Shown here: one piece after another, positions 36,601-47,588 of the stretch
Layout: each line of letters starts with the position of its first letter
Position numbering within the stretch: the first letter of the stretch is position 1
Source of the DNA: Escherichia phage DaisyDussoix
Reading direction: 5' to 3' (one strand)
Length of the DNA stretch: 64,000 nucleotides
Sequence record: MZ501058
The notes under the pieces: model-generated
What the model was told of the DNA's origin: nothing
Databases searched by the model: none
The model's input: the letters and a program-made list of their open reading frames with translations, nothing else
Program-made: the position numbers and the translations under genes

Positions 36601-37454
36601 CATAAATTAGAGAACAGCGAGCCGATTACGCTGAGTGAGTTTAGTGATTCCTAATAGGATAGCTATCCCACTGAATAGAGTCGGTGAGTTGGAGACTAGT
36701 AAGTACTCTTAGAGAGGCTACGAGCTAACGCTTATTGCTATTGATAGGGAACTGAAAATCTGCGGAAAACTCGGGAGCTGTCCCGAAATCTCGTAAACTC
36801 TTCTCTAGTTTATGTTAGTGGGGTGTCGAACTGACTTATGTGATAACACTGCCGTCCTAGTATAAACGGTAATATCAAACCGTAACTGGTGGAAGATGCA
36901 GGTTCGAATCCTGCGGTCGGAAAGAATCAGATAACTCGGGCTTATACCGGATAAGCATTCGCTGCTGTAGTACATACTATGACGGTTCAGGAGGTACGCC
37001 GCCTGATCAGTATTAGGTTAGAATCGAAACAGCTAAACCACGAGGAAACCTGACGGCCTCAATCAAACTCGGAACTCGGGATCACTGCCTAGTGTGTGCC
37101 CCGTTTAACCTGAGACTAGGCATCCAGCTTCGCATCGAAAATCGGAGGTGCGATTCTAACAGACCGCGTGAATATGAGAGTGGGAAATGCTGACATGAGA
37201 GATGTCACTAATGGTGCCCAATAGTACAGGTAATTCGCGATAATTCCTGTTGAGCGGCAGCAGTAGGCTGGGAGTCATGACCTAAGCCTAACCGAGTTCT
37301 TCACATACGGAGAACATAACCACAAAGTCACCCTGACTTAAACTGGAGGATATTATCTGACGGAAGGGCTGCAGAGCTTAATCTGAGGGGGCTGACCCTA
37401 CCTACCGTCGGGTATCTTTAAGAGCTTTTATAAGAGTTCTTAAAAATACCTAAA
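36601..37454 (+). ncRNA. candidate structured ncRNA / degenerate tRNA region (no ORF of 60 aa or more on either strand)
   Basis: 850 bp ORF-free directly after a strong promoter; tRNA T-arm copy at 36898-36914 without matching acceptor stem. Confidence 0.3.
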
Positions 37455-38735: not shown

Positions 38736-38770
38736 AAACCCTGTGTTCCCTGGAGAGCGCAGGGTTTTTC
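38736..38770 (+). terminator. intrinsic terminator
   Basis: AACCCUG...CAGGGUU + UUUUCUGU. Confidence 0.55.
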
Positions 38771-39327
38771 TGTATAACGTATTTATAAAATCAACTAGGA
38801 GATCAAATATGAGTGTTGATGAGTTGACCCGGCACCTTCTATCTAGAGGGTTTGATACAGATAAATATCATTGCTGGTTAAGTCCGGAAGGATGGCTAAC
38901 AGTCCCGTTGTATGATTTCTCTGGGATGTTGAGGGGCTATCAGACGTATAATCCTTCTGCTCCAAAAGGTCATGGTAAGTGTCCCTTTGAGGCTAAATAT
39001 TTTACCTACTCTACTACCCAGTGTGTATGGGGACTAGAAACTCTCAATGGAGATGAAAAAGTAGTATTGATTGCTGAATCTGTATTTAAGGCAGTTGCAT
39101 TACATAATGCTGGTTATCCAGCCCTAGCAATGTTGGGTTCTACCCCAGGAAAAGCGTTATTAAAGCAACTGAAATTACTACCTTTTAAATTGGTAGCTGT
39201 CGGGGATAATGATCCTGCGGGTGAAAAATTTGCTAGAAAATTAAACGGCTTTGTTTCTCCTGTAGATGTGGATGAGATGTCTACCGAAAACTTGAAAAAT
39301 TTTCTTGCTATGAAGCTAAATTTCTAA
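38743..39327 (+). CDS. TOPRIM-domain protein (likely start ATG about 38809)
   Basis: VVLIAESVFKAVAL ... LVAVGDNDPAGEKFARKL TOPRIM-like E/DxD pattern. Confidence 0.45.
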   Translation: MFPGERRVFLYNVFIKSTRRSNMSVDELTRHLLSRGFDTDKYHCWLSPEGWLTVPLYDFSGMLRGYQTYNPSAPKGHGKCPFEAKYFTYSTTQCVWGLETLNGDEKVVLIAESVFKAVALHNAGYPALAMLGSTPGKALLKQLKLLPFKLVAVGDNDPAGEKFARKLNGFVSPVDVDEMSTENLKNFLAMKLNF

Positions 39328-39437: not shown

Positions 39438-39444
39438 AATTCTG

Positions 39445-39521
39445 GTTCTCAAGCTCATATGGTATGAGCACCCAGCTCATAACTGGAAGGTACGTAGGTT
39501 CGAATCCTCGGGGAGCCACCA
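39445..39521 (+). tRNA. tRNA with CAU anticodon (Met or Ile-lysidine)
   Basis: acceptor GGUUCUC/GGGAGCC, anticodon loop CUCAUAA; T-stem imperfect. Confidence 0.5.
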
Positions 39522-41667: not shown

Positions 41668-41743
41668 CCGACCGTTGGCTGAATGGCTTAGGCGAAGGAT
41701 TGCAAATCCTTTTTATGTGAGTTCAAATCTCATGCGGTCGTCC
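41668..41743 (+). tRNA. tRNA-Cys (anticodon GCA)
   Basis: acceptor CGACCGU/GCGGUCG, anticodon stem AAGGA/UCCUU loop UUGCAAA, T-loop UUCAAAU, CCA. Confidence 0.6.
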
Positions 41744-41765
41744 AAATTACTAAAGGAAAGAAGTA

Positions 41766-42284
41766 GTGCATACAAAAGTTTTTGATAGTTTGGTAAAGAA
41801 AGGCGTTGTTACTAATGAGCCCTTCTGTATAACCGCAGAACTAATCCAAAGATTTATGGAAGAATATATAAATCTTTCAGGAACCAATGGTAACACCAAA
41901 AAGAATACAAATACTATGTATTCGAGAAAACTTGCTGCACTTTCCTTTATAAAGTTTAAGCAGGAAAATAAACTTCCTATTTCTGAAGGTTTTGTATACT
42001 GTATTAGTAATCCTGCATGGAAAAATCAGTATAAAATAGGTATGAGTCAAAATCCGAAGGAGAGATTAGCTCAATATCAGACTTATTCCCCTTATAGGGA
42101 TTATAAGTTAGAGCATTGGTCTTTTTGGTTTGACAAACGAAAAGGTGAAAAACTAATTCACCAGTATTTCAAAGATTTAAAAGAACATGAGTGGTTTAGT
42201 ATAAATTCTAGGGATCTTAGTAAATATCTAGGACGTATTAACTCTAGTTCTGACTTATATGGTTCCTTAGCTCTAATTGGTTAG
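41766..42284 (+). CDS. T5orf172-domain protein (GIY-YIG-like nuclease superfamily)
   Basis: 172 aa; GFVYCISNPAWKNQYKIGMSQNPKERLAQY core; 3' end overlaps tRNA-Asn start. Confidence 0.65.
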   Translation: MHTKVFDSLVKKGVVTNEPFCITAELIQRFMEEYINLSGTNGNTKKNTNTMYSRKLAALSFIKFKQENKLPISEGFVYCISNPAWKNQYKIGMSQNPKERLAQYQTYSPYRDYKLEHWSFWFDKRKGEKLIHQYFKDLKEHEWFSINSRDLSKYLGRINSSSDLYGSLALIG

Positions 42285-42338
42285 AGCGGCATCTTGTTAA
42301 GTTGAGGGTTGCTGGTTCGAATCCAGCAGGAACCGCCA
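42261..42338 (+). tRNA. tRNA-Asn (anticodon GUU)
   Basis: acceptor GGUUCCU/AGGAACC perfect, D-stem GCUC/GAGC, loop UUGUUAA, T-loop UUCGAAU, CCA. Confidence 0.55.
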
Positions 42339-42440
42339 AATTCTGTGTAGAGTTAAGTAAACCGGTAGCCAACCAGCTATCATTGCTGACATCGAATTCA
42401 GCCACAGATACCATTTTCATTAATAACTGAGGAAACAAGC

Positions 42441-42626
42441 ATGTCCAAGAATGTGATTGCGCAGCTAGAAGTTCATCGTGATAGCACTATCAACAACATT
42501 GAAGTTGAAAAGAAATACATCGAAGAACTTAAACATGATATACTAGTAAGTCTCAACCGTCTTAATGTACGAAAAGAGTTTCTTAAAGAACTTAATGCAG
42601 CTATTGAAAAACTCAAAGCTGAGTAA
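42441..42626 (+). CDS. hypothetical coiled-coil mini-protein
   Basis: ORF track 61 aa; GAGGAAA RBS. Confidence 0.4.
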   Translation: MSKNVIAQLEVHRDSTINNIEVEKKYIEELKHDILVSLNRLNVRKEFLKELNAAIEKLKAE

Positions 42627-42635
42627 ATAAATTAT

Positions 42636-42712
42636 GCGACCGGGGCTGGCTTGGTAATGGTACTCCCCTGTCACGGGAGGGAATGTGGGTTCAAATCCCA
42701 TCGGTCGCGCCA
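42636..42712 (+). tRNA. tRNA-Asp (anticodon GUC)
   Basis: acceptor GCGACCG/CGGUCGC perfect, anticodon stem CUCCC/GGGAG loop CUGUCAC, T-loop UUCAAAU, CCA. Confidence 0.7.
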
Positions 42713-42737
42713 AATTAATTTAGTATGAGAATATACT

Positions 42738-43085
42738 ATGCGTAATGCAAAAGAAGAGCTGTTACTTGCCTTAAAAAATACTAATTCTGAAGTTAAATGT
42801 ATTAAAATAGAATTCGGGTATTATGGGGATAAAAAAGTTTGGGTATTGCCTTTAGGTTACACAGAAGAAGATATTGAGGATTTTCTTAATAACCTAGACT
42901 TTAAATATGACTCTGGATATGGTGGACAATTACTTTATGGTAATGTATGGTTTGCCGATGGAACTTGGTTAGAACGTGGTGAATATGATGGTTCTGAATG
43001 GTGGGAATATAAGGCTACACCAGCAATCCCAGAAGAATGCCGAACAATTAATGGTGAAGTAGATAATACTTTACGGTTAAACTAA
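42738..43085 (+). CDS. hypothetical protein
   Basis: ORF track 115 aa. Confidence 0.45.
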   Translation: MRNAKEELLLALKNTNSEVKCIKIEFGYYGDKKVWVLPLGYTEEDIEDFLNNLDFKYDSGYGGQLLYGNVWFADGTWLERGEYDGSEWWEYKATPAIPEECRTINGEVDNTLRLN

Positions 43086-43089
43086 TAAA

Positions 43090-43460
43090 ATTTCAGTGCA
43101 GAACACGGAGCTAGCAATTAGGAAGTGCTGACTCATGATAAGCTGCCTATGTACTTGCAAAGCGGTCGTGTCCAAGACTCGGACTCTTGCACTGAAAACA
43201 ATCAAACATTCTAGCGTGGTTGATGGGGAAACCAGCTTGGCTAGGGCAGAAGCTCGTTCGATTCGAGTGAAAGAATGGTTCTCGTAAGTCCGCACAAGTG
43301 ATAATAGGTTCGAGTCCTGTCTAGAATGACACTATAAAGTTTACTTATTATGTAGGTTCCGATAGATCGGAGGGTCTATTCTGGCATTTAAGAGAGGTCT
43401 CGCAAACGTCTTTGTCAGCCGTGGGGTTGGTAGCCTCCAGGTGGCCTACACAATAAGTAA
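43090..43460 (+). ncRNA. candidate structured stable RNAs (ORF-free), including a 121-nt tRNA-like element 43208..43328
   Basis: long-range stems UUCAGUGCA/UGCACUGAA (43092-43100 / 43188-43196) and AUUCUAG/CUAGAAU closing a T-arm (AUAGG-UUCGAGU-CCUGU). Confidence 0.35.
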
Positions 43461-43467
43461 ATTTATT

Positions 43468-43510
43468 AAAAATTCATTTGCTATTCTGCTTTATTATCTG
43501 TATAATATAT
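43468..43510 (+). promoter_or_regulatory. T5-type sigma70 promoter
   Basis: AAAAATTCATTTGCTA-N17-TATAAT. Confidence 0.6.
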
Positions 43511-43538
43511 TTTATAAAGTGAAGAGAAGGAAAGCTAA

Positions 43539-44114
43539 ATGGAAGGATTTAAGCCAATACCCGAGTATCCAGAATACTTAGTATCTGAGAAGGGAGAAAT
43601 ATACTCTACTATCAGTAATAAATATCTAAAACCTACTATAAACGGAAAAGGCTATTACCACTTTGCAGTACGTGAAGATACTAATAAGTATAAATGGCTC
43701 CAGCTGCACAGAGTCATATGCAGAGTTTATGGCAATCTCCCCTCTTTAGATAGTGAAATGGAAGTAGATCATAATGATCGTAATAAGCTTAATATACTCC
43801 CTAGTAATTTAGTTGCCAGAGAGAAGAAAGATCATTATGATAAAACTACACTGGAGAGAGGAAAAACTATAGGGGGCACTAGATGTATAGTCTGTAATAA
43901 GAGGATACACTCTGGTCGAGAATACTGTATAAATTGCAGCCCAGTTAAACAGACTAAATCTCCAGAGATTACCGCAGAACAGATAGAATATTGGGTATCA
44001 AAGTATTCCTGGACTAGAGCTGCAAAAGAGTTAAATTTATCTGATAATGGTCTACGAAAACGGTATACTAAATTAACAGGTAAATCCCCAAAAGAAATTA
44101 AAAAATCAGGGTAA
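43539..44114 (+). CDS. HNH homing endonuclease (NUMOD4/HNH + C-terminal HTH type)
   Basis: 191 aa; HRVICRVYG...EVDHNDRNKLNILPSNL; C-terminal RAAKELNLSDNGLRKRY HTH. Confidence 0.75.
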   Translation: MEGFKPIPEYPEYLVSEKGEIYSTISNKYLKPTINGKGYYHFAVREDTNKYKWLQLHRVICRVYGNLPSLDSEMEVDHNDRNKLNILPSNLVAREKKDHYDKTTLERGKTIGGTRCIVCNKRIHSGREYCINCSPVKQTKSPEITAEQIEYWVSKYSWTRAAKELNLSDNGLRKRYTKLTGKSPKEIKKSG

Positions 44115-44184
44115 GGGCGATAAGGTACGCCACCTCGTTTGGGGTGAGGAAATCTTTAGAGTTCGAGTCCTGCCGCACTGACCA
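44107..44184 (+). tRNA. tRNA-like gene, possible Pro (anticodon UGG); acceptor/T-stem imperfect
   Basis: anticodon stem CCUCG/UGAGG loop UUUGGGG, D-stem GGCG/CGCC, T-loop UUCGAGU, CCA; several mismatches. Confidence 0.35.
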
Positions 44185-44190
44185 AACAAC

Positions 44191-44268
44191 TGCGGGTTAG
44201 ATCTCTGGTAGAGATCGCTAGTCTCATAAGCTAGAAAGAGGTAGGTTCGATTCCTGCACCCGCTTCCA
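44191..44268 (+). tRNA. tRNA with CAU anticodon (Met or Ile-lysidine)
   Basis: D-stem GAUC/GAUC, anticodon stem CUAGU/GCUAG loop CUCAUAA, T-loop UUCGAUU, CCA. Confidence 0.55.
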
Positions 44269-44288
44269 CTTTAATAGAGGATTTCGAA

Positions 44289-44456
44289 ATGAAAGTATTT
44301 CGATTAGTAGTAAGTGACAAACGTTTAGGTAATAATACATCAAAATCCTTACTCGCTCATTACGGTAAAAATTGGGATGAAGTAATGGCAGAGTTTAGTA
44401 CTAATCACCCTTACTTGAAAGTTCACTCTATTAAAGAAGTGTACAATGGTTACTAA
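44289..44456 (+). CDS. hypothetical small protein (55 aa; below track cutoff)
   Basis: AGAGGA RBS then ATG; MKVFRLVVSDKRLGNN... Confidence 0.3.
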   Translation: MKVFRLVVSDKRLGNNTSKSLLAHYGKNWDEVMAEFSTNHPYLKVHSIKEVYNGY

Positions 44457-44457
44457 T

Positions 44458-44536
44458 AGATCGCTAGCTCAATAGGTTTAGTAGCATCCGACTTTTAATC
44501 GGAAGGTTCTGGGTTCGAGTCCCAGGCGATCTACCA
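44458..44536 (+). tRNA. tRNA-Lys (anticodon UUU)
   Basis: acceptor AGAUCGC/GCGAUCU perfect, anticodon stem UCCGA/UCGGA loop CUUUUAA, T-arm CUGGG-UUCGAGU-CCCAG, CCA. Confidence 0.65.
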
Positions 44537-44540
44537 AATT

Positions 44541-44614
44541 GCTCGGTTAGTTTAATGGGAGAACCCCGTCTTTACACGGCGGTTGAGATAGTTCAATTCT
44601 ATCACCGAGTACCA
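44541..44614 (+). tRNA. tRNA-Val (anticodon UAC)
   Basis: acceptor GCUCGGU/ACCGAGU, anticodon stem CCGUC/GGCGG loop UUUACAC, T-arm GAUAG-UUCAAUU-CUAUC, CCA. Confidence 0.6.
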
Positions 44615-44633
44615 ATTAACTCAAAATAAGGAA

Positions 44634-44993
44634 TTGCAAATGCAATTATCAAGCAAGATTCAAGGTTATTTCGGTCATGTAACAATGGAGTTCGCTATCT
44701 CTAAAGGTTGGGACTTCGAACAAGATTTAGCTGAGTTCTACAAAGATATTGATCTGAACGTACCATACATGGGACTTTCTACTGGTCAGGAGATCACAGA
44801 AGCCGATGTATTCAAGGCAAGTCAAGGTGAGGTAACACCTAGTTTTGCCGAGTTCTGGTTAGGCATTACGTTAAAAGAAGATGCACCAGATAGTGGTGTA
44901 CTAATGTCTAGTATGCACTCTGGAAGTTCCGATTACCTTTTCATTAGCGATGTTAAGGAAATACAAGAAGTCTGCAAAAATGTACTTGCTTGA
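44634..44993 (+). CDS. hypothetical protein
   Basis: ORF track 119 aa; next promoter sits in its 3' end. Confidence 0.45.
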   Translation: MQMQLSSKIQGYFGHVTMEFAISKGWDFEQDLAEFYKDIDLNVPYMGLSTGQEITEADVFKASQGEVTPSFAEFWLGITLKEDAPDSGVLMSSMHSGSSDYLFISDVKEIQEVCKNVLA

Positions 44994-45018
44994 TGCTTAA
45001 TTTCTTGTTATAATATTT
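44976..45018 (+). promoter_or_regulatory. T5-type sigma70 promoter
   Basis: AAAAATGTACTTGCTT-N17-TATAAT. Confidence 0.55.
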
Positions 45019-45029
45019 ATATAAATTGA

Positions 45030-45252
45030 TGGGGAGAAATCCTCATCATAGTTCACTAAGGTATTAGCTCGACCTAGGACTGGCTGCCAAAAAGCACGAT
45101 CCCTACAATTCGGGAGAAGTTCTAGATTAGTCCACTAGATTCAGCGGCAACTGAATAGTGTATCGGGTTTGCGAGATGACGCAGTTCCTTCCGCTCGAAG
45201 CGAAGGTGCTGTAGTTACGCCGAGCTAATAGCCTTAGTAAACTAAATAATTT
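45030..45252 (+). ncRNA. candidate structured leader / small RNA (ORF-free, hairpin-rich) ahead of tRNA-Ala
   Basis: hairpins GAUGGGG..CCUCAUC, UUCAG..CUGAA, CCUUCCGCUCGAAGCGAAGG. Confidence 0.25.
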
Positions 45253-45327
45253 GGGCGAATAGTGTCAGCGGGAGCACACCAGACTTGCAATCTGGTAGGG
45301 AGGGTTCGAGTCCCTCTTTGTCCACCA
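45253..45327 (+). tRNA. tRNA-Ala (anticodon UGC)
   Basis: acceptor GGGCGAA/UUUGUCC (G-U pairs), anticodon stem CCAGA/UCUGG loop CUUGCAA, T-arm GAGGG-UUCGAGU-CCCUC, CCA. Confidence 0.65.
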
Positions 45328-45332
45328 AATTC

Positions 45333-45417
45333 GGGGCTATGCTGGAACTGGTAGACAATACGGCCTTAGATTCCGTAGCTTAAATGCGTGGGAGTTCGAG
45401 TCTCCCTAGCCCCACCA
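45333..45417 (+). tRNA. tRNA-Leu (anticodon UAG), type II
   Basis: acceptor GGGGCUA/UAGCCCC perfect, loop CUUAGAU, long variable arm, T-arm GGGAG-UUCGAGU-CUCCC, CCA. Confidence 0.6.
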
Positions 45418-45434
45418 ACTCATAGGATTTATGT

Positions 45435-46019
45435 ATGCAGTTTGTACCAATAAAAGATGCACCAGGGTATTTAGTAAATGAGGCGGGGGATGTGTTCTCT
45501 ACATTTACTAATAAAGTTTTATCAAGATATATAGTTGATGGATACCCTGCTGTAAAATTACAGATAAATGGTAAACAAACCTCTGTACTTATACACCGAA
45601 TTATTTCTCATGTATTTGGGGACTTATATAATCTATTTGACCCTGAACTAGAGGTAGATCATAAGGATAGAGATAGACTGAATCTATCTAAAGATAATCT
45701 TCAAGTCCTATCAAAAATAGAACATCAGAGGAAAACTAATAAAGATAATGGGTGGTCTGACAGTAGAGTACCTTGCCCCCTATGTGGGAGTCTAATGCTT
45801 CAGAGATCTGTAACATGTACAAATTGTAAGCCAAAACCTACAGGAAGGTTGATAAAACCAGAATTGTCTTTAGACGACATAACTGAAAAGGTTTTATTAA
45901 TGGGGTGGGTTAAGGCAGCTAAAGAGTTAGAAGTATCAGAGTCCACTTTGCGCAGGAGGTATACTAAACTAACTGGATTAAGCCCAAAAGTATTAACAGA
46001 ACAATGGAAAAGCAAGTAG
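45435..46019 (+). CDS. HNH homing endonuclease (NUMOD4/HNH + HTH type)
   Basis: 194 aa; HRIISHVFG...EVDHKDRDRLNLSKDNL; C-terminal HTH. Confidence 0.75.
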   Translation: MQFVPIKDAPGYLVNEAGDVFSTFTNKVLSRYIVDGYPAVKLQINGKQTSVLIHRIISHVFGDLYNLFDPELEVDHKDRDRLNLSKDNLQVLSKIEHQRKTNKDNGWSDSRVPCPLCGSLMLQRSVTCTNCKPKPTGRLIKPELSLDDITEKVLLMGWVKAAKELEVSESTLRRRYTKLTGLSPKVLTEQWKSK

Positions 46020-46097
46020 ACTGGCGACTAAACCCGATTGGAAAGTGGCTGACTTGTGAAAGCAGGCTTGAGAGTTCGAATCTCTCTTCTTCCGCCA
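46006..46097 (+). tRNA. tRNA-like gene, probably type II (anticodon unresolved)
   Basis: T-arm GAGAG-UUCGAAU-CUCUC, 3' UUCUUCC-G-CCA; 5' strand GGAAAAG pairs 6/7. Confidence 0.35.
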
Positions 46098-46120
46098 AAC
46101 AATAGAAGATAGGACGTAGT

Positions 46121-46195
46121 GGTACGTAACCGGTCTTGAAAACCGGCCCGCTGTAGTGATACGGTGTAAGGGTTCGATCCCCTTACCTACCTCCA
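46121..46195 (+). tRNA. tRNA (anticodon unresolved)
   Basis: acceptor GGUACGU/ACCUACC (6/7), D-stem CCGG/CCGG, T-arm AAGGG-UUCGAUC-CCCUU, CCA. Confidence 0.45.
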
Positions 46196-46561
46196 AATCT
46201 TGAAGTATGCCGAAATCGGTAGACGGGGCTGCCTAAAAGGTTTATAGGGAACATCCACTCCCTACAACATACCTCATAAAGCGGCTGAGATAAATGGTCT
46301 ATCTCGTGAAGGTTCAAGTCCTTCTGCTTCTTGATACATCTATGGCTCAAAGTGTAACGGTGCTATTTGATGCTCTTGGTAAGACTTCCCCGACATGCGT
46401 TCGGGAGTAAGCTGCTAAGACTAGAGTAGAAGAGTTTCTGAGAGCCGCCACAATTGAAAATTCGTACTCGTCTTGAGCTGCGCGCAATAGGAGATAACTT
46501 GATTAGTATTCTAGAACATGCTAATTGAGGAAGGTTTCGCTAACCCTGCGAGTTTTCAATT
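46196..46561 (+). ncRNA. candidate structured RNA region (ORF-free) with 18-bp imperfect inverted repeat
   Basis: IR arms 46447-46464 (GCCACAATTGAAAATTCG) and 46549-46566 (CGAGTTTTCAATTGTGGC); T-arm-like hairpins without acceptor stems. Confidence 0.3.
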
Positions 46562-46638
46562 GTGGCTATATCATAATTGGTTAATGATCCTGATTGTGAA
46601 TCAGGCCTATGTGGATTCGAATTCCACTAGCCACCCCA
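46562..46638 (+). tRNA. tRNA-His (anticodon GUG)
   Basis: acceptor GUGGCUA/UAGCCAC perfect, anticodon stem CCUGA/UCAGG loop UUGUGAA, T-arm GUGGA-UUCGAAU-UCCAC, CCA. Confidence 0.65.
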
Positions 46639-46668
46639 AATTAACTTAACTTAAATAGGAAATAAAAT

Positions 46669-46863
46669 ATGGCTGATTTCTGCAAACAATGCTCCATTGA
46701 TATGTGGGGCAGAGATACTGGTGATCTTTCTGGTTTGATTACAGAAGCTGAGGTCAAAGAAGGTTATGGTGCAGTTGTGATTTGCGAAGGATGCGGAGTT
46801 ATTCGAGTAGATCATGAAGGCAAACGTTTAGAAGAATCTGAGCCAACAACAATTTTTCCGTAG
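46669..46863 (+). CDS. Cys-rich zinc-ribbon-like mini-protein
   Basis: CKQC ... CEGCG; 64 aa. Confidence 0.4.
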   Translation: MADFCKQCSIDMWGRDTGDLSGLITEAEVKEGYGAVVICEGCGVIRVDHEGKRLEESEPTTIFP

Positions 46864-46869
46864 AATAAG

Positions 46870-47451
46870 ATGAAATTAGAGAATTTCAAAGTAATTCCTG
46901 AGTATCCAGAATACTTAATCTCTCCATACGGAGAGGTTTACTCTACCAAGAGTAATAAATTACTTACACATCATTTAGGCAGTGCGGGATACCTGTTTGT
47001 AACGTTCTATGAACAGGGTAAAAATGTTTCTGTTGTACTGCATAGATTATTGGCTAGAGTATTTAAAGATTTACCTTCGCTAGAATCTGAACTAGAGGTG
47101 GATCACAAAGATAGGAATAAATTGAACTTTGCCCTGGATAATCTAGTTGTCATGACCAAGGAAGATCACAGAGTAAAAACTACACTTGAAAGAGGACATA
47201 TAATAGGTGGTAACAAGTGCCCTTATTGTAGTAAACAAATAAATTCTTCAGCTAAAACTTGTTTTGATTGTAAACCTAAGAGTAACCCTGCTATTACAGC
47301 AGAGCAAATAGAATATTGGGTAATAAATTATTCGTGGGTTAAAGCATCAAAAGAGCTGGGACTATCTGATAATGGTCTACGTAAACGTTATAAATCCTTA
47401 ACAGGTAAAGATCCAAAAAGTATTAAGAAGAAGGTTAGCCAAGTCGGTTAA
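46870..47451 (+). CDS. HNH homing endonuclease (NUMOD4/HNH + HTH type)
   Basis: 193 aa; HRLLARVF...EVDHKDRNKLNFALDNL; 3' end overlaps tRNA-Gln start. Confidence 0.75.
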   Translation: MKLENFKVIPEYPEYLISPYGEVYSTKSNKLLTHHLGSAGYLFVTFYEQGKNVSVVLHRLLARVFKDLPSLESELEVDHKDRNKLNFALDNLVVMTKEDHRVKTTLERGHIIGGNKCPYCSKQINSSAKTCFDCKPKSNPAITAEQIEYWVINYSWVKASKELGLSDNGLRKRYKSLTGKDPKSIKKKVSQVG

Positions 47452-47504
47452 GGCTGGGGTCTCTGAAATCCTGATCAGTGGTTCAAATCCACTACTTTCT
47501 GCCA
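47429..47504 (+). tRNA. tRNA-Gln (anticodon CUG)
   Basis: acceptor AGAAGGU/ACUUUCU, loop CUCUGAA, T-arm AGUGG-UUCAAAU-CCACU, CCA. Confidence 0.55.
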
Positions 47505-47510
47505 AACAAT

Positions 47511-47588
47511 TGGGGATTAGCTTAGCTTGGCCTAAAGCTTCGGCCTTTGAAGTCGAGATCATTGGTTCAAATCCAATATCCCCTGCCA
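47511..47588 (+). tRNA. tRNA-Gln (anticodon UUG)
   Basis: anticodon stem UCGGC/GUCGA loop CUUUGAA, T-arm AUUGG-UUCAAAU-CCAAU, CCA. Confidence 0.5.

What the first reader, a model, noticed from the sequence alone, without database searches (positions are those of the whole stretch)
41766..47504. Nuclease-type selfish ORFs repeatedly end inside the 5' end of a downstream tRNA
Four ORFs of homing-endonuclease type terminate 10-25 nt inside the predicted 5' acceptor strand of the next tRNA: T5orf172/GIY-YIG-like 41766..42284 into tRNA-Asn (42261); HNH 43539..44114 into a tRNA-like gene (44107); HNH 45435..46019 into a tRNA at 46006; HNH 46870..47451 into tRNA-Gln (47429). The repeated geometry suggests these endonucleases use tRNA genes as homing landmarks, or that the tRNA 5' end contributes the ORF stop context. 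It also means tRNA 5' processing would cut the endonuclease mRNA.
Basis: partly seen in the sequence, partly recalled or inferred. Interest (0 to 1): 0.6.

Follow-up and report, generated by a model that had tools for sequence, protein, structure and literature searches.

The report
Homing endonuclease genes ending inside tRNAs
In this T5-like phage, four selfish nuclease genes sit directly against tRNA genes and take their stop codon from the first bases of the tRNA; the pattern is real and specific to such nucleases, but it is already annotated in phage T5 and phage 5 and its likely meaning is already in print.

Summary
The window is the tRNA cluster of a T5-like phage (Tequintavirus, about 94% identical to T5). 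All four ORFs exist as described. They are orthologues of T5.069 (T5orf172/GIY-YIG-like), F-TflIII (hegB of Salmonella phage 5), F-TflI (hegC) and F-TflII (hegD). Their stops lie 24, 8, 14 and 23 nt inside the next tRNA or tRNA-like gene.

Two downstream genes, tRNA-Asn and tRNA-Gln(CUG), are solid. The Pro-like and Ser(GGA)-like genes are found only at relaxed thresholds. Both are recombinants between an endonuclease-linked allele and an endonuclease-free allele, with crossovers in the T loop and the anticodon loop.

The geometry is not chance. In 25 related loci, all 14 endonuclease lineages lying within 100 nt upstream of a tRNA run into it, against 4 of 22 other ORF families (p about 2e-6). 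An empty site shows the T5orf172 insert is a 509-nt cassette with no stop of its own.

The same overlaps are annotated in GenBank for T5 and phage 5. A 2008 paper on T4 SegB already proposed that tRNA processing cuts these mRNAs. Verdict: real, mechanistically sensible, already known. The breadth of the pattern and the chimeric tRNAs are modest additions.

The parts
41669..41744 (+). tRNA-Cys(GCA); left neighbour of the T5orf172 insertion
   Evidence: ARAGORN; Rfam 48.5 bits
41749..42257 (+). 509-nt inserted cassette: ribosome-binding site plus 164 codons, with no stop codon of its own
   Evidence: Comparison with the empty site Cys-AATTTAT-Asn in phagemcphageface L019
41766..42284 (+). T5orf172/MUG113 (GIY-YIG-like) putative homing endonuclease; orthologue of T5.069 (98% aa); the last 7 codons and the TAG stop lie in tRNA-Asn
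   Evidence: T5 annotation
42261..42338 (+). tRNA-Asn(GUU), allele A; 24-nt overlap with the ORF, whose stop is at D-loop positions 22-24
   Evidence: 132 GenBank records carry this allele, 82 with the endonuclease and 50 without
43478..43506 (+). Sigma-70-like promoter (TTGCTA-17-TATAAT) just upstream of the F-TflIII ORF; lies within the stretch homologous to T5 promoter P13a
   Evidence: T5 annotation
43539..44114 (+). HNH (NUMOD4 + HNH_3) endonuclease; 190/191 aa identical to hegB/F-TflIII of Salmonella phage 5
44107..44184 (+). Recombinant pseudo-tRNA-Pro(UGG): nt 1-58 from the F-TflIII-linked allele, the last ~25 nt from endonuclease-free allele C; crossover at GTTCGA in the T loop; T stem and acceptor stem damaged; 8-nt overlap with the ORF
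   Evidence: not detected by Rfam
45333..45417 (+). tRNA-Leu(UAG), 85-nt allele; left neighbour of hegC
45435..46019 (+). HNH_3 endonuclease; orthologue of T5 hegC/F-TflI (99.5% aa)
46006..46097 (+). Recombinant tRNA-Ser(GGA)-like gene: nt 1-40 from the hegC-linked allele (1 mismatch to T5), nt 41-92 from the endonuclease-free allele; crossover at TTGGAAA in the anticodon loop; 14-nt overlap with the ORF. ARAGORN at the 80% threshold calls 46006..46093; the 3' end at 46097 is from alignment to T5 tRNA-Ser2.
   Evidence: none of 221 GenBank matches spans the junction
46104..46195 (+). tRNA-Ser(UGA), also recombinant: VAH1-type nt 1-66 plus SA001-type nt 67-92; acceptor stem mismatched
   Evidence: Rfam gives only a sub-threshold tRNA-Sec match
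46669..46863 (+). T5.062 homologue, upstream neighbour of hegD; in relatives that lost hegD this ORF is fused to the hegD tail or to the tRNA
46870..47451 (+). HNH (NUMOD4 + HNH_3) endonuclease; orthologue of T5 hegD/F-TflII (94% aa); best solved relative is I-HmuI
47429..47504 (+). tRNA-Gln(CUG), allele A; 23-nt overlap with the ORF, stop TAA in the D loop. This allele occurs only with hegD or, in the three hegD-free carriers examined, with a hegD deletion scar.
47511..47588 (+). tRNA-Gln(UUG), 78-nt allele; co-inherited with Gln(CUG) allele A in all 9 loci that carry allele A

Best explanation
The four ORFs are free-standing homing-endonuclease genes lodged in the tRNA cluster of a T5-like phage. 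Three are I-HmuI-like HNH enzymes, orthologues of F-TflIII, F-TflI and F-TflII. One is T5orf172/GIY-YIG-like, the orthologue of T5.069.

Each sits directly against the 5' end of a tRNA gene. At the one site with an empty allele (T5orf172/tRNA-Asn) the insert demonstrably carries no stop codon of its own. All four ORFs end at a stop triplet inside the 5' part of the tRNA: the D loop for Asn and Gln(CUG), positions 12-14 for the Ser-like gene, positions 6-8 for the Pro-like gene. In relatives the stop is often U8-A9-G10 = TAG.

They spread between co-infecting relatives by break-initiated gene conversion ('intronless homing') and carry the adjoining tRNA allele with them. When a conversion tract ends inside the tRNA gene it leaves a hybrid tRNA. 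The Pro-like and Ser(GGA)-like genes of this window are two such hybrids.

By homology to the T5 promoter map, the ORFs lie in polycistronic tRNA precursor transcripts. RNase P cleavage at tRNA position +1 would then remove the last 2-7 sense codons and the stop, giving a non-stop message, which is expected to keep the level of a potentially toxic nuclease low.

Shown here: the domains, the geometry, its specificity to endonucleases, the stop-less T5orf172 insert, the allele linkage and the hybrid tRNAs. Taken from the literature: nuclease activity of the F-Tfl enzymes, and SegB homing in a tRNA cluster. Inferred: that the tRNA gene is the cleavage target, and that RNase P cleavage throttles expression.
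For: Domains. ORF4 matches I-HmuI (PDB 1u3e) at E=2.6e-10.

Orthology with the same annotated overlaps: T5.069/tRNA-Asn 24 nt, hegC/tRNA-Ser2 14 nt and hegD/tRNA-Gln2 23 nt in AY543070; hegB/tRNA-Pro 8 nt in AJ604531.

Sporadic presence with sharp edges:
- Asn allele A is in 132 records, 82 with and 50 without the endonuclease, and homology starts 0-3 nt before the tRNA.
- F-TflIII is in 12 of 411 records.

Specificity to endonucleases: 14 of 14 lineages against 4 of 22, p=1.6e-6. The 14 lineages abut tRNAs for Asn, Gln, Glu, Leu, Ser, Lys, Ala, Asp, Pro and Gly. A T4-like Aeromonas phage shows a 27-nt overlap with tRNA-Lys.

Linkage:
- In the 25-locus sample, all 9 loci with Gln(CUG) allele A also carry Gln(UUG) allele A.
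- In GenBank, allele A is in 30 records, 17 with hegD.
- The three hegD-free carriers examined have distinct microhomology deletion scars.

Hybrid tRNAs with crossovers at 6-14-nt conserved motifs.

Transcription: no terminator-like site lies between any of the four ORFs and its tRNA, and the promoters map upstream.

Literature: SegB homing and its tRNA-gene recognition, and the RNase P idea for SegB and F-TflI/II (PMC2330249); T5orf172 proteins as GIY-YIG-type homing endonucleases at recombination boundaries (PMC10448857).
Against: No cleavage-site or RNA-processing data were available here. The primary paper on the F-Tfl enzymes (PMID 15456135) could not be read.

For tRNA-Asn the same allele occurs with and without the endonuclease, so a 'private resistant allele' is not general.

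T5 hegA/F-TflIV has no tRNA downstream. Relatives in Vibrio, Serratia and Proteus phages have their own stops. The overlap is therefore frequent but not obligatory.

About two thirds of reading frames entering a tRNA hit a stop within 25 nt anyway, so the short overlap length needs no selection.

The hybrid tRNAs are singletons: they were not found in GenBank phages, IMG/VR, JGI metagenomes or GTDB genomes.

Rfam also misses the intact parental Pro and Ser(GGA) alleles, so those tRNAs may be atypical or inactive even before recombination.
Confidence: 0.75

Rival explanations
1. The overlap is a neutral by-product of insertion and genome compaction. The cassettes happened to land against tRNAs and any stop inside the tRNA suffices; the overlap has no regulatory or immunity role.
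For: Sixty-five percent of frame and tRNA combinations give a stop within 25 nt, and TAG at positions 8-10 is present in most tRNAs of the window. Some relatives keep their own stop 1 nt before, or far from, the tRNA. Four families that are not endonucleases also overlap tRNAs.
Against: The overlap is strongly enriched in endonuclease lineages: 14 of 14 against 4 of 22. It recurs in two unrelated nuclease families and in T4-like phages. That argues for a cause tied to endonuclease biology, though that cause could be the insertion mechanism rather than selection.
Confidence: 0.3
2. The linked tRNA allele is the immunity determinant. The enzyme cuts the endonuclease-free tRNA allele, and fusing the ORF physically to a diverged, uncuttable allele prevents recombination from separating the gene from its protection.
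For: hegD, hegC and F-TflIII are each tied to a tRNA allele that differs from the endonuclease-free allele. Both hybrid tRNAs keep the 5' part next to the endonuclease. SegB recognises tRNA T-loop sequence (PMC2330249).
Against: tRNA-Asn allele A is the same with and without the T5orf172 gene. No cleavage sites are known to me for these enzymes. Linkage could simply reflect co-conversion of flanking DNA.
Confidence: 0.35
3. Artefact: the ORFs or tRNA boundaries are mispredicted, or the hybrid tRNAs are assembly chimeras of mixed T5-like phages.
For: Two downstream genes fall below detector thresholds. The hybrid junctions occur nowhere else.
Against: The ORFs are conserved at 93-99% aa identity and have domain hits. 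The Asn and Gln boundaries agree between two tools and with curated T5 annotation. The parents share only 6, 7 and 14 identical bases at the crossovers, which from general knowledge of assemblers is too short for a switch at typical k-mer lengths. The geometry holds in dozens of independent genomes.
Confidence: 0.04

Closest known systems
Phage T5 hegC/F-TflI, hegD/F-TflII and T5.069, and Salmonella phage 5 hegB/F-TflIII (GenBank AY543070, AJ604531; Akulenko et al. 2004, PMID 15456135)
   Same: They are direct orthologues (94-99.5% aa) at the same loci. GenBank annotates the same ORF/tRNA overlaps of 14, 23, 24 and 8 nt.
   Different: The window combines all four in one genome; T5 lacks F-TflIII and phage 5 lacks the other three. 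The window's Pro-like and Ser(GGA)-like genes are recombinant versions not seen in any searched collection.
Phage T4 SegB (GIY-YIG free-standing homing endonuclease in the T4 tRNA cluster; PMC2330249)
   Same: It is a free-standing endonuclease gene between tRNA genes. Its stop codon sits at the start of the downstream tRNA, so tRNA maturation cuts between the last sense codon and the stop. Homing carries neighbouring tRNA genes along. The enzyme recognises tRNA gene sequence.
   Different: It belongs to a different phage family. Its overlap is only the stop codon, against 8-24 nt here. Three of the four enzymes here are HNH, not GIY-YIG. Cleavage sites of the present enzymes are not known to me.
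I-HmuI (HNH homing endonuclease of Bacillus phage SPO1, PDB 1u3e)
   Same: It is the best solved relative of ORF 46870..47451 (E=2.6e-10 over residues 14-111).
   Different: From my own knowledge, not tested here: I-HmuI is encoded in a group I intron of a polymerase gene and nicks one strand. The genes here are free-standing and abut tRNAs. Whether they nick or make double-strand cuts was not tested.
Intronless homing and marker exclusion by T4 SegF/SegG, and 'nuclease genes occupy boundaries of genetic exchange' (PMC2988022, PMC10448857)
   Same: These are free-standing endonucleases with co-conversion of flanking markers, and recombination breakpoints next to the nuclease gene. T5orf172 proteins are treated there as GIY-YIG-type homing endonucleases enriched in T5-like phages.
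   Different: In the passages I retrieved, those papers do not discuss ORF/tRNA overlap or hybrid tRNAs as conversion scars.

Membership tests
Free-standing homing endonuclease gene | Encodes a nuclease domain of a homing-endonuclease family (HNH, GIY-YIG) | tested here: met
   Pfam HNH_3 with or without NUMOD4 for three ORFs, and T5orf172/MUG113 for one. ORF4 matches I-HmuI.
Free-standing homing endonuclease gene | Sporadic presence or absence at one locus among close relatives, with otherwise collinear flanks | tested here: met
   T5orf172: 82 with, 50 without on the same tRNA-Asn allele. F-TflIII: 12 of 411 records. hegD: 17 of 30 carriers of Gln allele A. hegC: present or absent.
Free-standing homing endonuclease gene | Site-specific cleavage of the endonuclease-free allele | not testable with these tools
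   Known to me only from the title of PMID 15456135, as cited in PMC2330249. That paper is not held.
Free-standing homing endonuclease gene | Biased inheritance with co-conversion of flanking markers | tested here: inconclusive
   Only indirect footprints: linked tRNA alleles and hybrid tRNAs next to the genes. No cross data.
SegB-type arrangement (endonuclease in a tRNA cluster whose mRNA is cut by tRNA maturation) | Gene lies between tRNA genes on the same strand, in a tRNA precursor transcript | tested here: met
   Promoters by homology to T5. No terminator-like site between ORF and tRNA.
SegB-type arrangement (endonuclease in a tRNA cluster whose mRNA is cut by tRNA maturation) | Stop codon at or beyond position +1 of the downstream tRNA | tested here: met
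   Overlaps of 24, 8, 14 and 23 nt.
SegB-type arrangement (endonuclease in a tRNA cluster whose mRNA is cut by tRNA maturation) | RNase P cleavage actually separates the ORF from its stop; the enzyme recognises tRNA gene sequence | not testable with these tools
   Needs transcript mapping and cleavage assays.
SegB-type arrangement (endonuclease in a tRNA cluster whose mRNA is cut by tRNA maturation) | GIY-YIG catalytic domain, as in SegB | tested here: not met
   Three of the four are HNH. The fourth is T5orf172, which PMC10448857 treats as a GIY-YIG subfamily. These genes work like SegB but are not members of its protein family.
Bona fide tRNA gene (the four downstream elements) | Cloverleaf with intact acceptor and T stems, detected by standard tools | tested here: inconclusive
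   Met for Asn and Gln(CUG). Not met for the Pro-like and Ser(GGA)-like genes. Their intact parental alleles fold as cloverleaves but Rfam misses them too.
Intron-encoded homing endonuclease in a tRNA gene | ORF lies inside an intron that interrupts the tRNA | tested here: not met
   The ORFs lie upstream of uninterrupted tRNAs. The empty site shows insertion in the 7-nt spacer, not in the tRNA.

The most novel reading that the evidence does not exclude
The tRNA-borrowed stop is a selected device, and the endonuclease plus tRNA pair is the real unit of mobility. RNase P cleavage would turn the endonuclease message into a non-stop mRNA and so set its dose. Homing of such pairs would continually replace, hybridise and destroy tRNA alleles. 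On this reading, selfish nucleases are a main driver of turnover in the tRNA repertoire of T5-like and T4-like phages. That repertoire now matters for escape from tRNA-targeting host defences (context: PMC10644984, PMC11464382).
Probability: 0.25. Interest if true: 0.55.

Novelty: already known. Interest (0 to 1): 0.3.

Why it matters
The finding itself is a textbook-style example rather than a discovery. The same overlaps are in curated T5 and phage 5 records, and the idea that tRNA processing cuts these mRNAs was printed in 2008.

What the follow-up adds:
- The rule holds for every endonuclease lineage next to a tRNA in the sampled relatives, across two unrelated nuclease families. There are at least ten different tRNA specificities in the T5-like sample, and one further case in a T4-like phage.
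- At least one such element is a minimal stop-less cassette.
- Homing can leave hybrid, probably defective tRNAs.

This bears on how phage tRNA sets evolve. It also matters for annotation: two of these tRNA-like genes are missed by standard tools, and the ORF ends are easily mis-called.

Tried and rejected
1. A strict 'private tRNA allele per endonuclease' model. It is rejected for tRNA-Asn, because allele A occurs without the gene in 50 records, including a clean empty site. It is kept as a possibility for hegD, hegC and F-TflIII.

2. Treating the endonuclease-free carriers of Gln allele A as empty target sites. This is rejected for the three examined (Es2, APCEc03, DT57C). Each has a different microhomology junction that fuses T5.062 to the hegD tail or to the tRNA, so they are secondary deletions.

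3. Using Rfam scores to show that recombination broke functional tRNAs. This is not possible, because Rfam also misses the intact parental Pro and Ser(GGA) alleles. I relied on stem pairing and minimum-free-energy folds instead.

4. IMG/VR scans with two of the proteins gave only 13 loci, mostly duplicates of GenBank phages. GenBank phage records were more useful.

5. Searching for the two hybrid junction strings found nothing: both strings in IMG/VR, the Pro junction in JGI metagenomes, and the Ser junction in GTDB genomes.

6. The primary paper on the F-Tfl enzymes (PMID 15456135) is not held, so their cleavage sites remain unknown to me.

7. An assembly-chimera explanation for the hybrid tRNAs is judged unlikely, because the parents share only 6-14 identical bases at the crossovers.

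8. An intron-encoded endonuclease reading is rejected, because the tRNAs are uninterrupted.

Full report
**Identity of the window.** The region 41600..47700 matches 503 GenBank phage records. The best match is Escherichia phage T5, at 94.5% identity over 82% of the query. It is the tRNA cluster of a T5-like phage (Tequintavirus). ARAGORN finds 23 tRNAs on the + strand between 37455 and 48811. Rfam confirms them and adds two more, at 39444..39518 and 36851..36922.

**The observation.** All four ORFs exist at the stated coordinates and have endonuclease domains:
- 41766..42284 matches MUG113/T5orf172.
- 43539..44114 and 46870..47451 match NUMOD4 plus HNH_3.
- 45435..46019 matches HNH_3.

ORF 46870..47451 has the SPO1 HNH homing endonuclease I-HmuI as its best solved relative (E=2.6e-10).

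tRNA-Asn (42261..42338) and tRNA-Gln(CUG) (47429..47504) are found by both tools. The ORFs overlap them by 24 and 23 nt and stop at TAG and TAA in the D loop.

The two other downstream genes are missed by ARAGORN at default settings and by Rfam, even with permissive filters.
- A Pro(UGG)-like gene at 44107..44184, with a broken T stem (8-nt overlap).
- A Ser(GGA)-like gene from 46006 (14-nt overlap). ARAGORN calls it 46006..46093; alignment to T5 tRNA-Ser2 puts the 3' end at 46097.

The tRNA sequence supplies the last 7, 2, 4 and 7 sense codons of the four proteins, plus the stop.

**Is it chance?** In the window, the six other ORFs that end near a tRNA all stop 1-69 nt before it. That gives 4 of 4 against 0 of 6, p=0.005.

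In 25 related loci I collected every ORF of at least 60 aa ending within 100 nt of, or inside, the next tRNA. I clustered them and scanned representatives against Pfam. All fourteen endonuclease lineages (T5orf172-type or HNH; two have only sub-threshold HNH hits) run into the tRNA. They abut tRNAs for Asn, Gln, Glu (three lineages), Leu, Ser, Lys, Ala, Asp, Pro and Gly. The overlaps are 8-24 nt, with one of 65 nt. Of 22 other ORF families, 4 overlap (Fisher p=1.6e-6; 3e-5 if the two weak HNH lineages are counted as non-endonucleases).

A 10-nt overlap means the stop is the conserved U8-A9-G10 = TAG. Reading into the window's tRNAs, 65% of frame and tRNA combinations reach a stop within 25 nt. 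So the short length of the overlap needs no special explanation. What needs explaining is that the endonuclease genes lack their own stops.

There are exceptions:
- T5 hegA/F-TflIV follows tRNA-Ile2 and has no tRNA downstream.
- Homologues in Vibrio phage Hades, Serratia phage PS2 and Proteus phage PM135 have their own stops.
- By contrast, a T4-like Aeromonas phage (44RR2.8t.2) has a T5orf172 ORF overlapping tRNA-Lys by 27 nt.

**What the four genes are.** They are orthologues of genes annotated by the Ksenzenko laboratory:

| Window ORF | Orthologue | aa identity | Annotated overlap |
|---|---|---|---|
| 41766..42284 | T5.069 (T5) | 98% | tRNA-Asn, 24 nt |
| 45435..46019 | hegC/F-TflI (T5) | 99.5% | tRNA-Ser2(GGA), 14 nt |
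| 46870..47451 | hegD/F-TflII (T5) | 94% | tRNA-Gln2(CUG), 23 nt |
| 43539..44114 | hegB/F-TflIII (Salmonella phage 5) | 190/191 | tRNA-Pro, 8 nt |

**Insertion anatomy.**

*Site 1 (T5orf172 / tRNA-Asn).* Asn allele A occurs in 132 records, 82 with and 50 without the T5orf172 gene. In the records without it, homology begins 0-3 nt before the tRNA. Phage phagemcphageface has tRNA-Cys, a 7-nt spacer (AATTTAT), then tRNA-Asn allele A. Against it, the window carries an exact 509-nt insert (41749..42257) with a ribosome-binding site and 164 codons but no stop. Tequintaviruses without the gene (I14, fp01, SSP1, phage 5) carry a different, 83-nt Asn allele.

*Site 4 (hegD / tRNA-Gln).* Gln(CUG) allele A is in 30 GenBank records, 17 of them with hegD. 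The three hegD-free carriers I examined each have a different junction, formed at a short microhomology (GATCCA, GAAGAAGG or AGCCAA). The junction fuses the upstream ORF T5.062 to the hegD tail or to the tRNA, so these are secondary deletions, not empty sites. In the 25-locus sample, all 9 loci with allele A also carry the 78-nt Gln(UUG) allele. The other loci have unrelated alleles of both tRNAs.

*Site 3 (hegC / tRNA-Ser(GGA)).* hegC replaces a 112-nt spacer between tRNA-Leu(UAG) and tRNA-Ser(GGA). It is tied to a Ser(GGA) allele whose D arm holds the TAG stop; the endonuclease-free allele has ATCGAA there.

*Site 2 (F-TflIII / tRNA-Pro).* The F-TflIII ORF plus its own Pro allele replaces T5.066 plus tRNA-Pro exactly from the start codon, reusing the promoter and ribosome-binding site.

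**Hybrid tRNAs.**

*Pro-like gene.* In phage 5, GEC_vB_N3, HildyBeyeler and Stp1, the F-TflIII-linked tRNA-Pro has perfect acceptor and T stems and folds as a cloverleaf. The window's copy matches that allele for 58 nt (1 mismatch). It then switches, within GTTCGA of the T loop, to the 3' end of the endonuclease-free allele C. This destroys the T stem and weakens the acceptor stem.

*Ser(GGA)-like gene.* The window's copy matches the hegC-linked allele for 40 nt (1 mismatch to T5). After TTGGAAA of the anticodon loop it matches the endonuclease-free allele. None of 221 GenBank matches spans this junction.

*tRNA-Ser(UGA).* The next gene (46104..46195) is a third hybrid, with a mismatched acceptor stem.

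The junction strings are absent from IMG/VR, JGI metagenomes and GTDB genomes. The parents share only 6, 7 and 14 identical bases at the crossovers, which makes assembly chimeras unlikely. These hybrids are what homing into a genome with a diverged tRNA allele would leave when the conversion tract ends inside the tRNA.

One caveat applies. Rfam also misses the intact parental Pro and Ser(GGA) alleles. The GenBank notes say that neither T5 tRNA-Ser2 nor phage 5 tRNA-Pro becomes an amber suppressor when its anticodon is replaced. The parents may therefore be atypical tRNAs themselves.

**Mechanism.** The best-supported reading is free-standing homing endonucleases that live in, and move with, tRNA genes.

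Shown here:
- The nuclease domains.
- Sporadic distribution with sharp edges at the tRNA 5' end.
- A stop-less cassette.
- Allele linkage.
- Recombinant tRNAs next to the genes.

From the literature:
[quoted passage not shown] I know this only from the title of PMID 15456135 as cited in PMC2330249; the paper itself is not held.
[quoted passage not shown] It cuts tRNA genes of phage T2L and is inherited at nearly 100%, with loss of T2L tRNA markers.
- T5orf172 proteins are treated as GIY-YIG-type homing endonucleases that sit at recombination boundaries (PMC10448857).

Inferred:
- The tRNA gene or its 5' junction is the recognition target.
- RNase P removes the stop and throttles expression. 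By homology to T5 promoters P14b, P13a and P13b, and with no terminator-like site between ORF and tRNA, the ORFs lie in tRNA precursor transcripts. RNase P cleavage at +1 would then remove the stop and give a non-stop mRNA. This idea was printed for SegB and, citing Akulenko 2004 and a personal communication, for the T5 enzymes.

**Rivals.**
- A neutral by-product of insertion and compaction (about 0.3).
- A linked resistant tRNA allele acting as the immunity determinant (about 0.35; compatible with the main reading, but not general because of the Asn case).
- Artefact (about 0.04).

**Novelty and score.** The geometry and its proposed consequence are already known for the orthologous genes of T5 and phage 5, and for T4 SegB. 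The follow-up adds four things:
- The rule is specific to endonucleases.
- It holds in all 14 sampled lineages, from two nuclease families.
- One element is a minimal stop-less cassette.
- This genome carries three hybrid tRNAs that look like conversion scars.

These are modest increments. Interest is 0.3.

Noticed in passing
window 46104..46195: tRNA-Ser(UGA) is itself a hybrid of two allele types seen in relatives: VAH1/chee24 type for nt 1-66 and SA001/S130 type for nt 67-92. Its acceptor stem is mismatched, and Rfam gives only a sub-threshold tRNA-Sec match (34.9 bits).
   Followed up: partly
window 39444..39518: ARAGORN misses a tRNA with anticodon CAU at default settings; Rfam finds it at 38.2 bits. 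It corresponds to the gene T5 annotates as tRNA-Ile2(CAU).
   Followed up: partly
window 36851..36922: Weak tRNA-like element (Rfam 29.3 bits, right at the gathering threshold; relaxed ARAGORN calls it 'Ser(act)'). It lies upstream of tRNA-Arg. T5 annotates a stable RNA of unknown function, rnaX, next to its tRNA-Arg, but I did not align the two regions.
   Followed up: no
window 43100..43470, 45040..45240, 46200..46560: Non-coding stretches homologous to the T5 'stable RNAs with unknown functions' (rna2, rnaIV, rna2H, rna1, rnaI, rnaIII), some described as tRNA-like in the T5 record. No Rfam family matches them.
   Followed up: no
window 44634..44993: 119-aa ORF between tRNA-Val and the P13b/rna2H region. 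It is absent from T5, but a similar-sized CDS is annotated at the same position in SA001, I14 and S130. Conversely, the T5.063 ORF is missing from the window near 46196.
   Followed up: no
window 38743..39327: ORF homologous to T5.076; a homologue in a related locus (L008) has a Toprim domain. It ends 21 nt before tRNA-Ser(GCU), so it is an ORF other than an endonuclease that keeps its own stop. PMC10644984 mentions a T5 Toprim-domain ORF, first annotated as a primase, that was later named Rad.
   Followed up: no
L023 1339..1512, L024 1339..1548, L025 1338..1544: In phages APCEc03, DT57C and Es2 the small ORF T5.062 runs into tRNA-Gln(CUG). hegD was deleted at three different short microhomologies. 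Es2 keeps the last 13 codons of hegD in frame.
   Followed up: yes
L022 6678..6789 and the same spacer in other hegC-free relatives: The 112-nt spacer between tRNA-Leu(UAG) and tRNA-Ser(GGA) contains a T-arm-like GGGTTCGAATCCC. It may be a remnant of another tRNA.
   Followed up: no
GenBank records PP892525 (L004), MG065692, MG065656: Record labels look wrong. Phage vB_EcoS_I14 is filed under Felixounavirus, yet it carries a T5-type tRNA cluster. 'Campylobacter phage' C13 has a near-identical DNA match to the hegD/tRNA-Gln segment, and C3 a weaker protein match to the HNH enzyme.
   Followed up: no
L030 928..1518 (Aeromonas phage 44RR2.8t.2): An unannotated 196-aa T5orf172-type ORF in the tRNA cluster of a T4-like phage overlaps tRNA-Lys by 27 nt. 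The same geometry therefore occurs outside the T5 family.
   Followed up: partly
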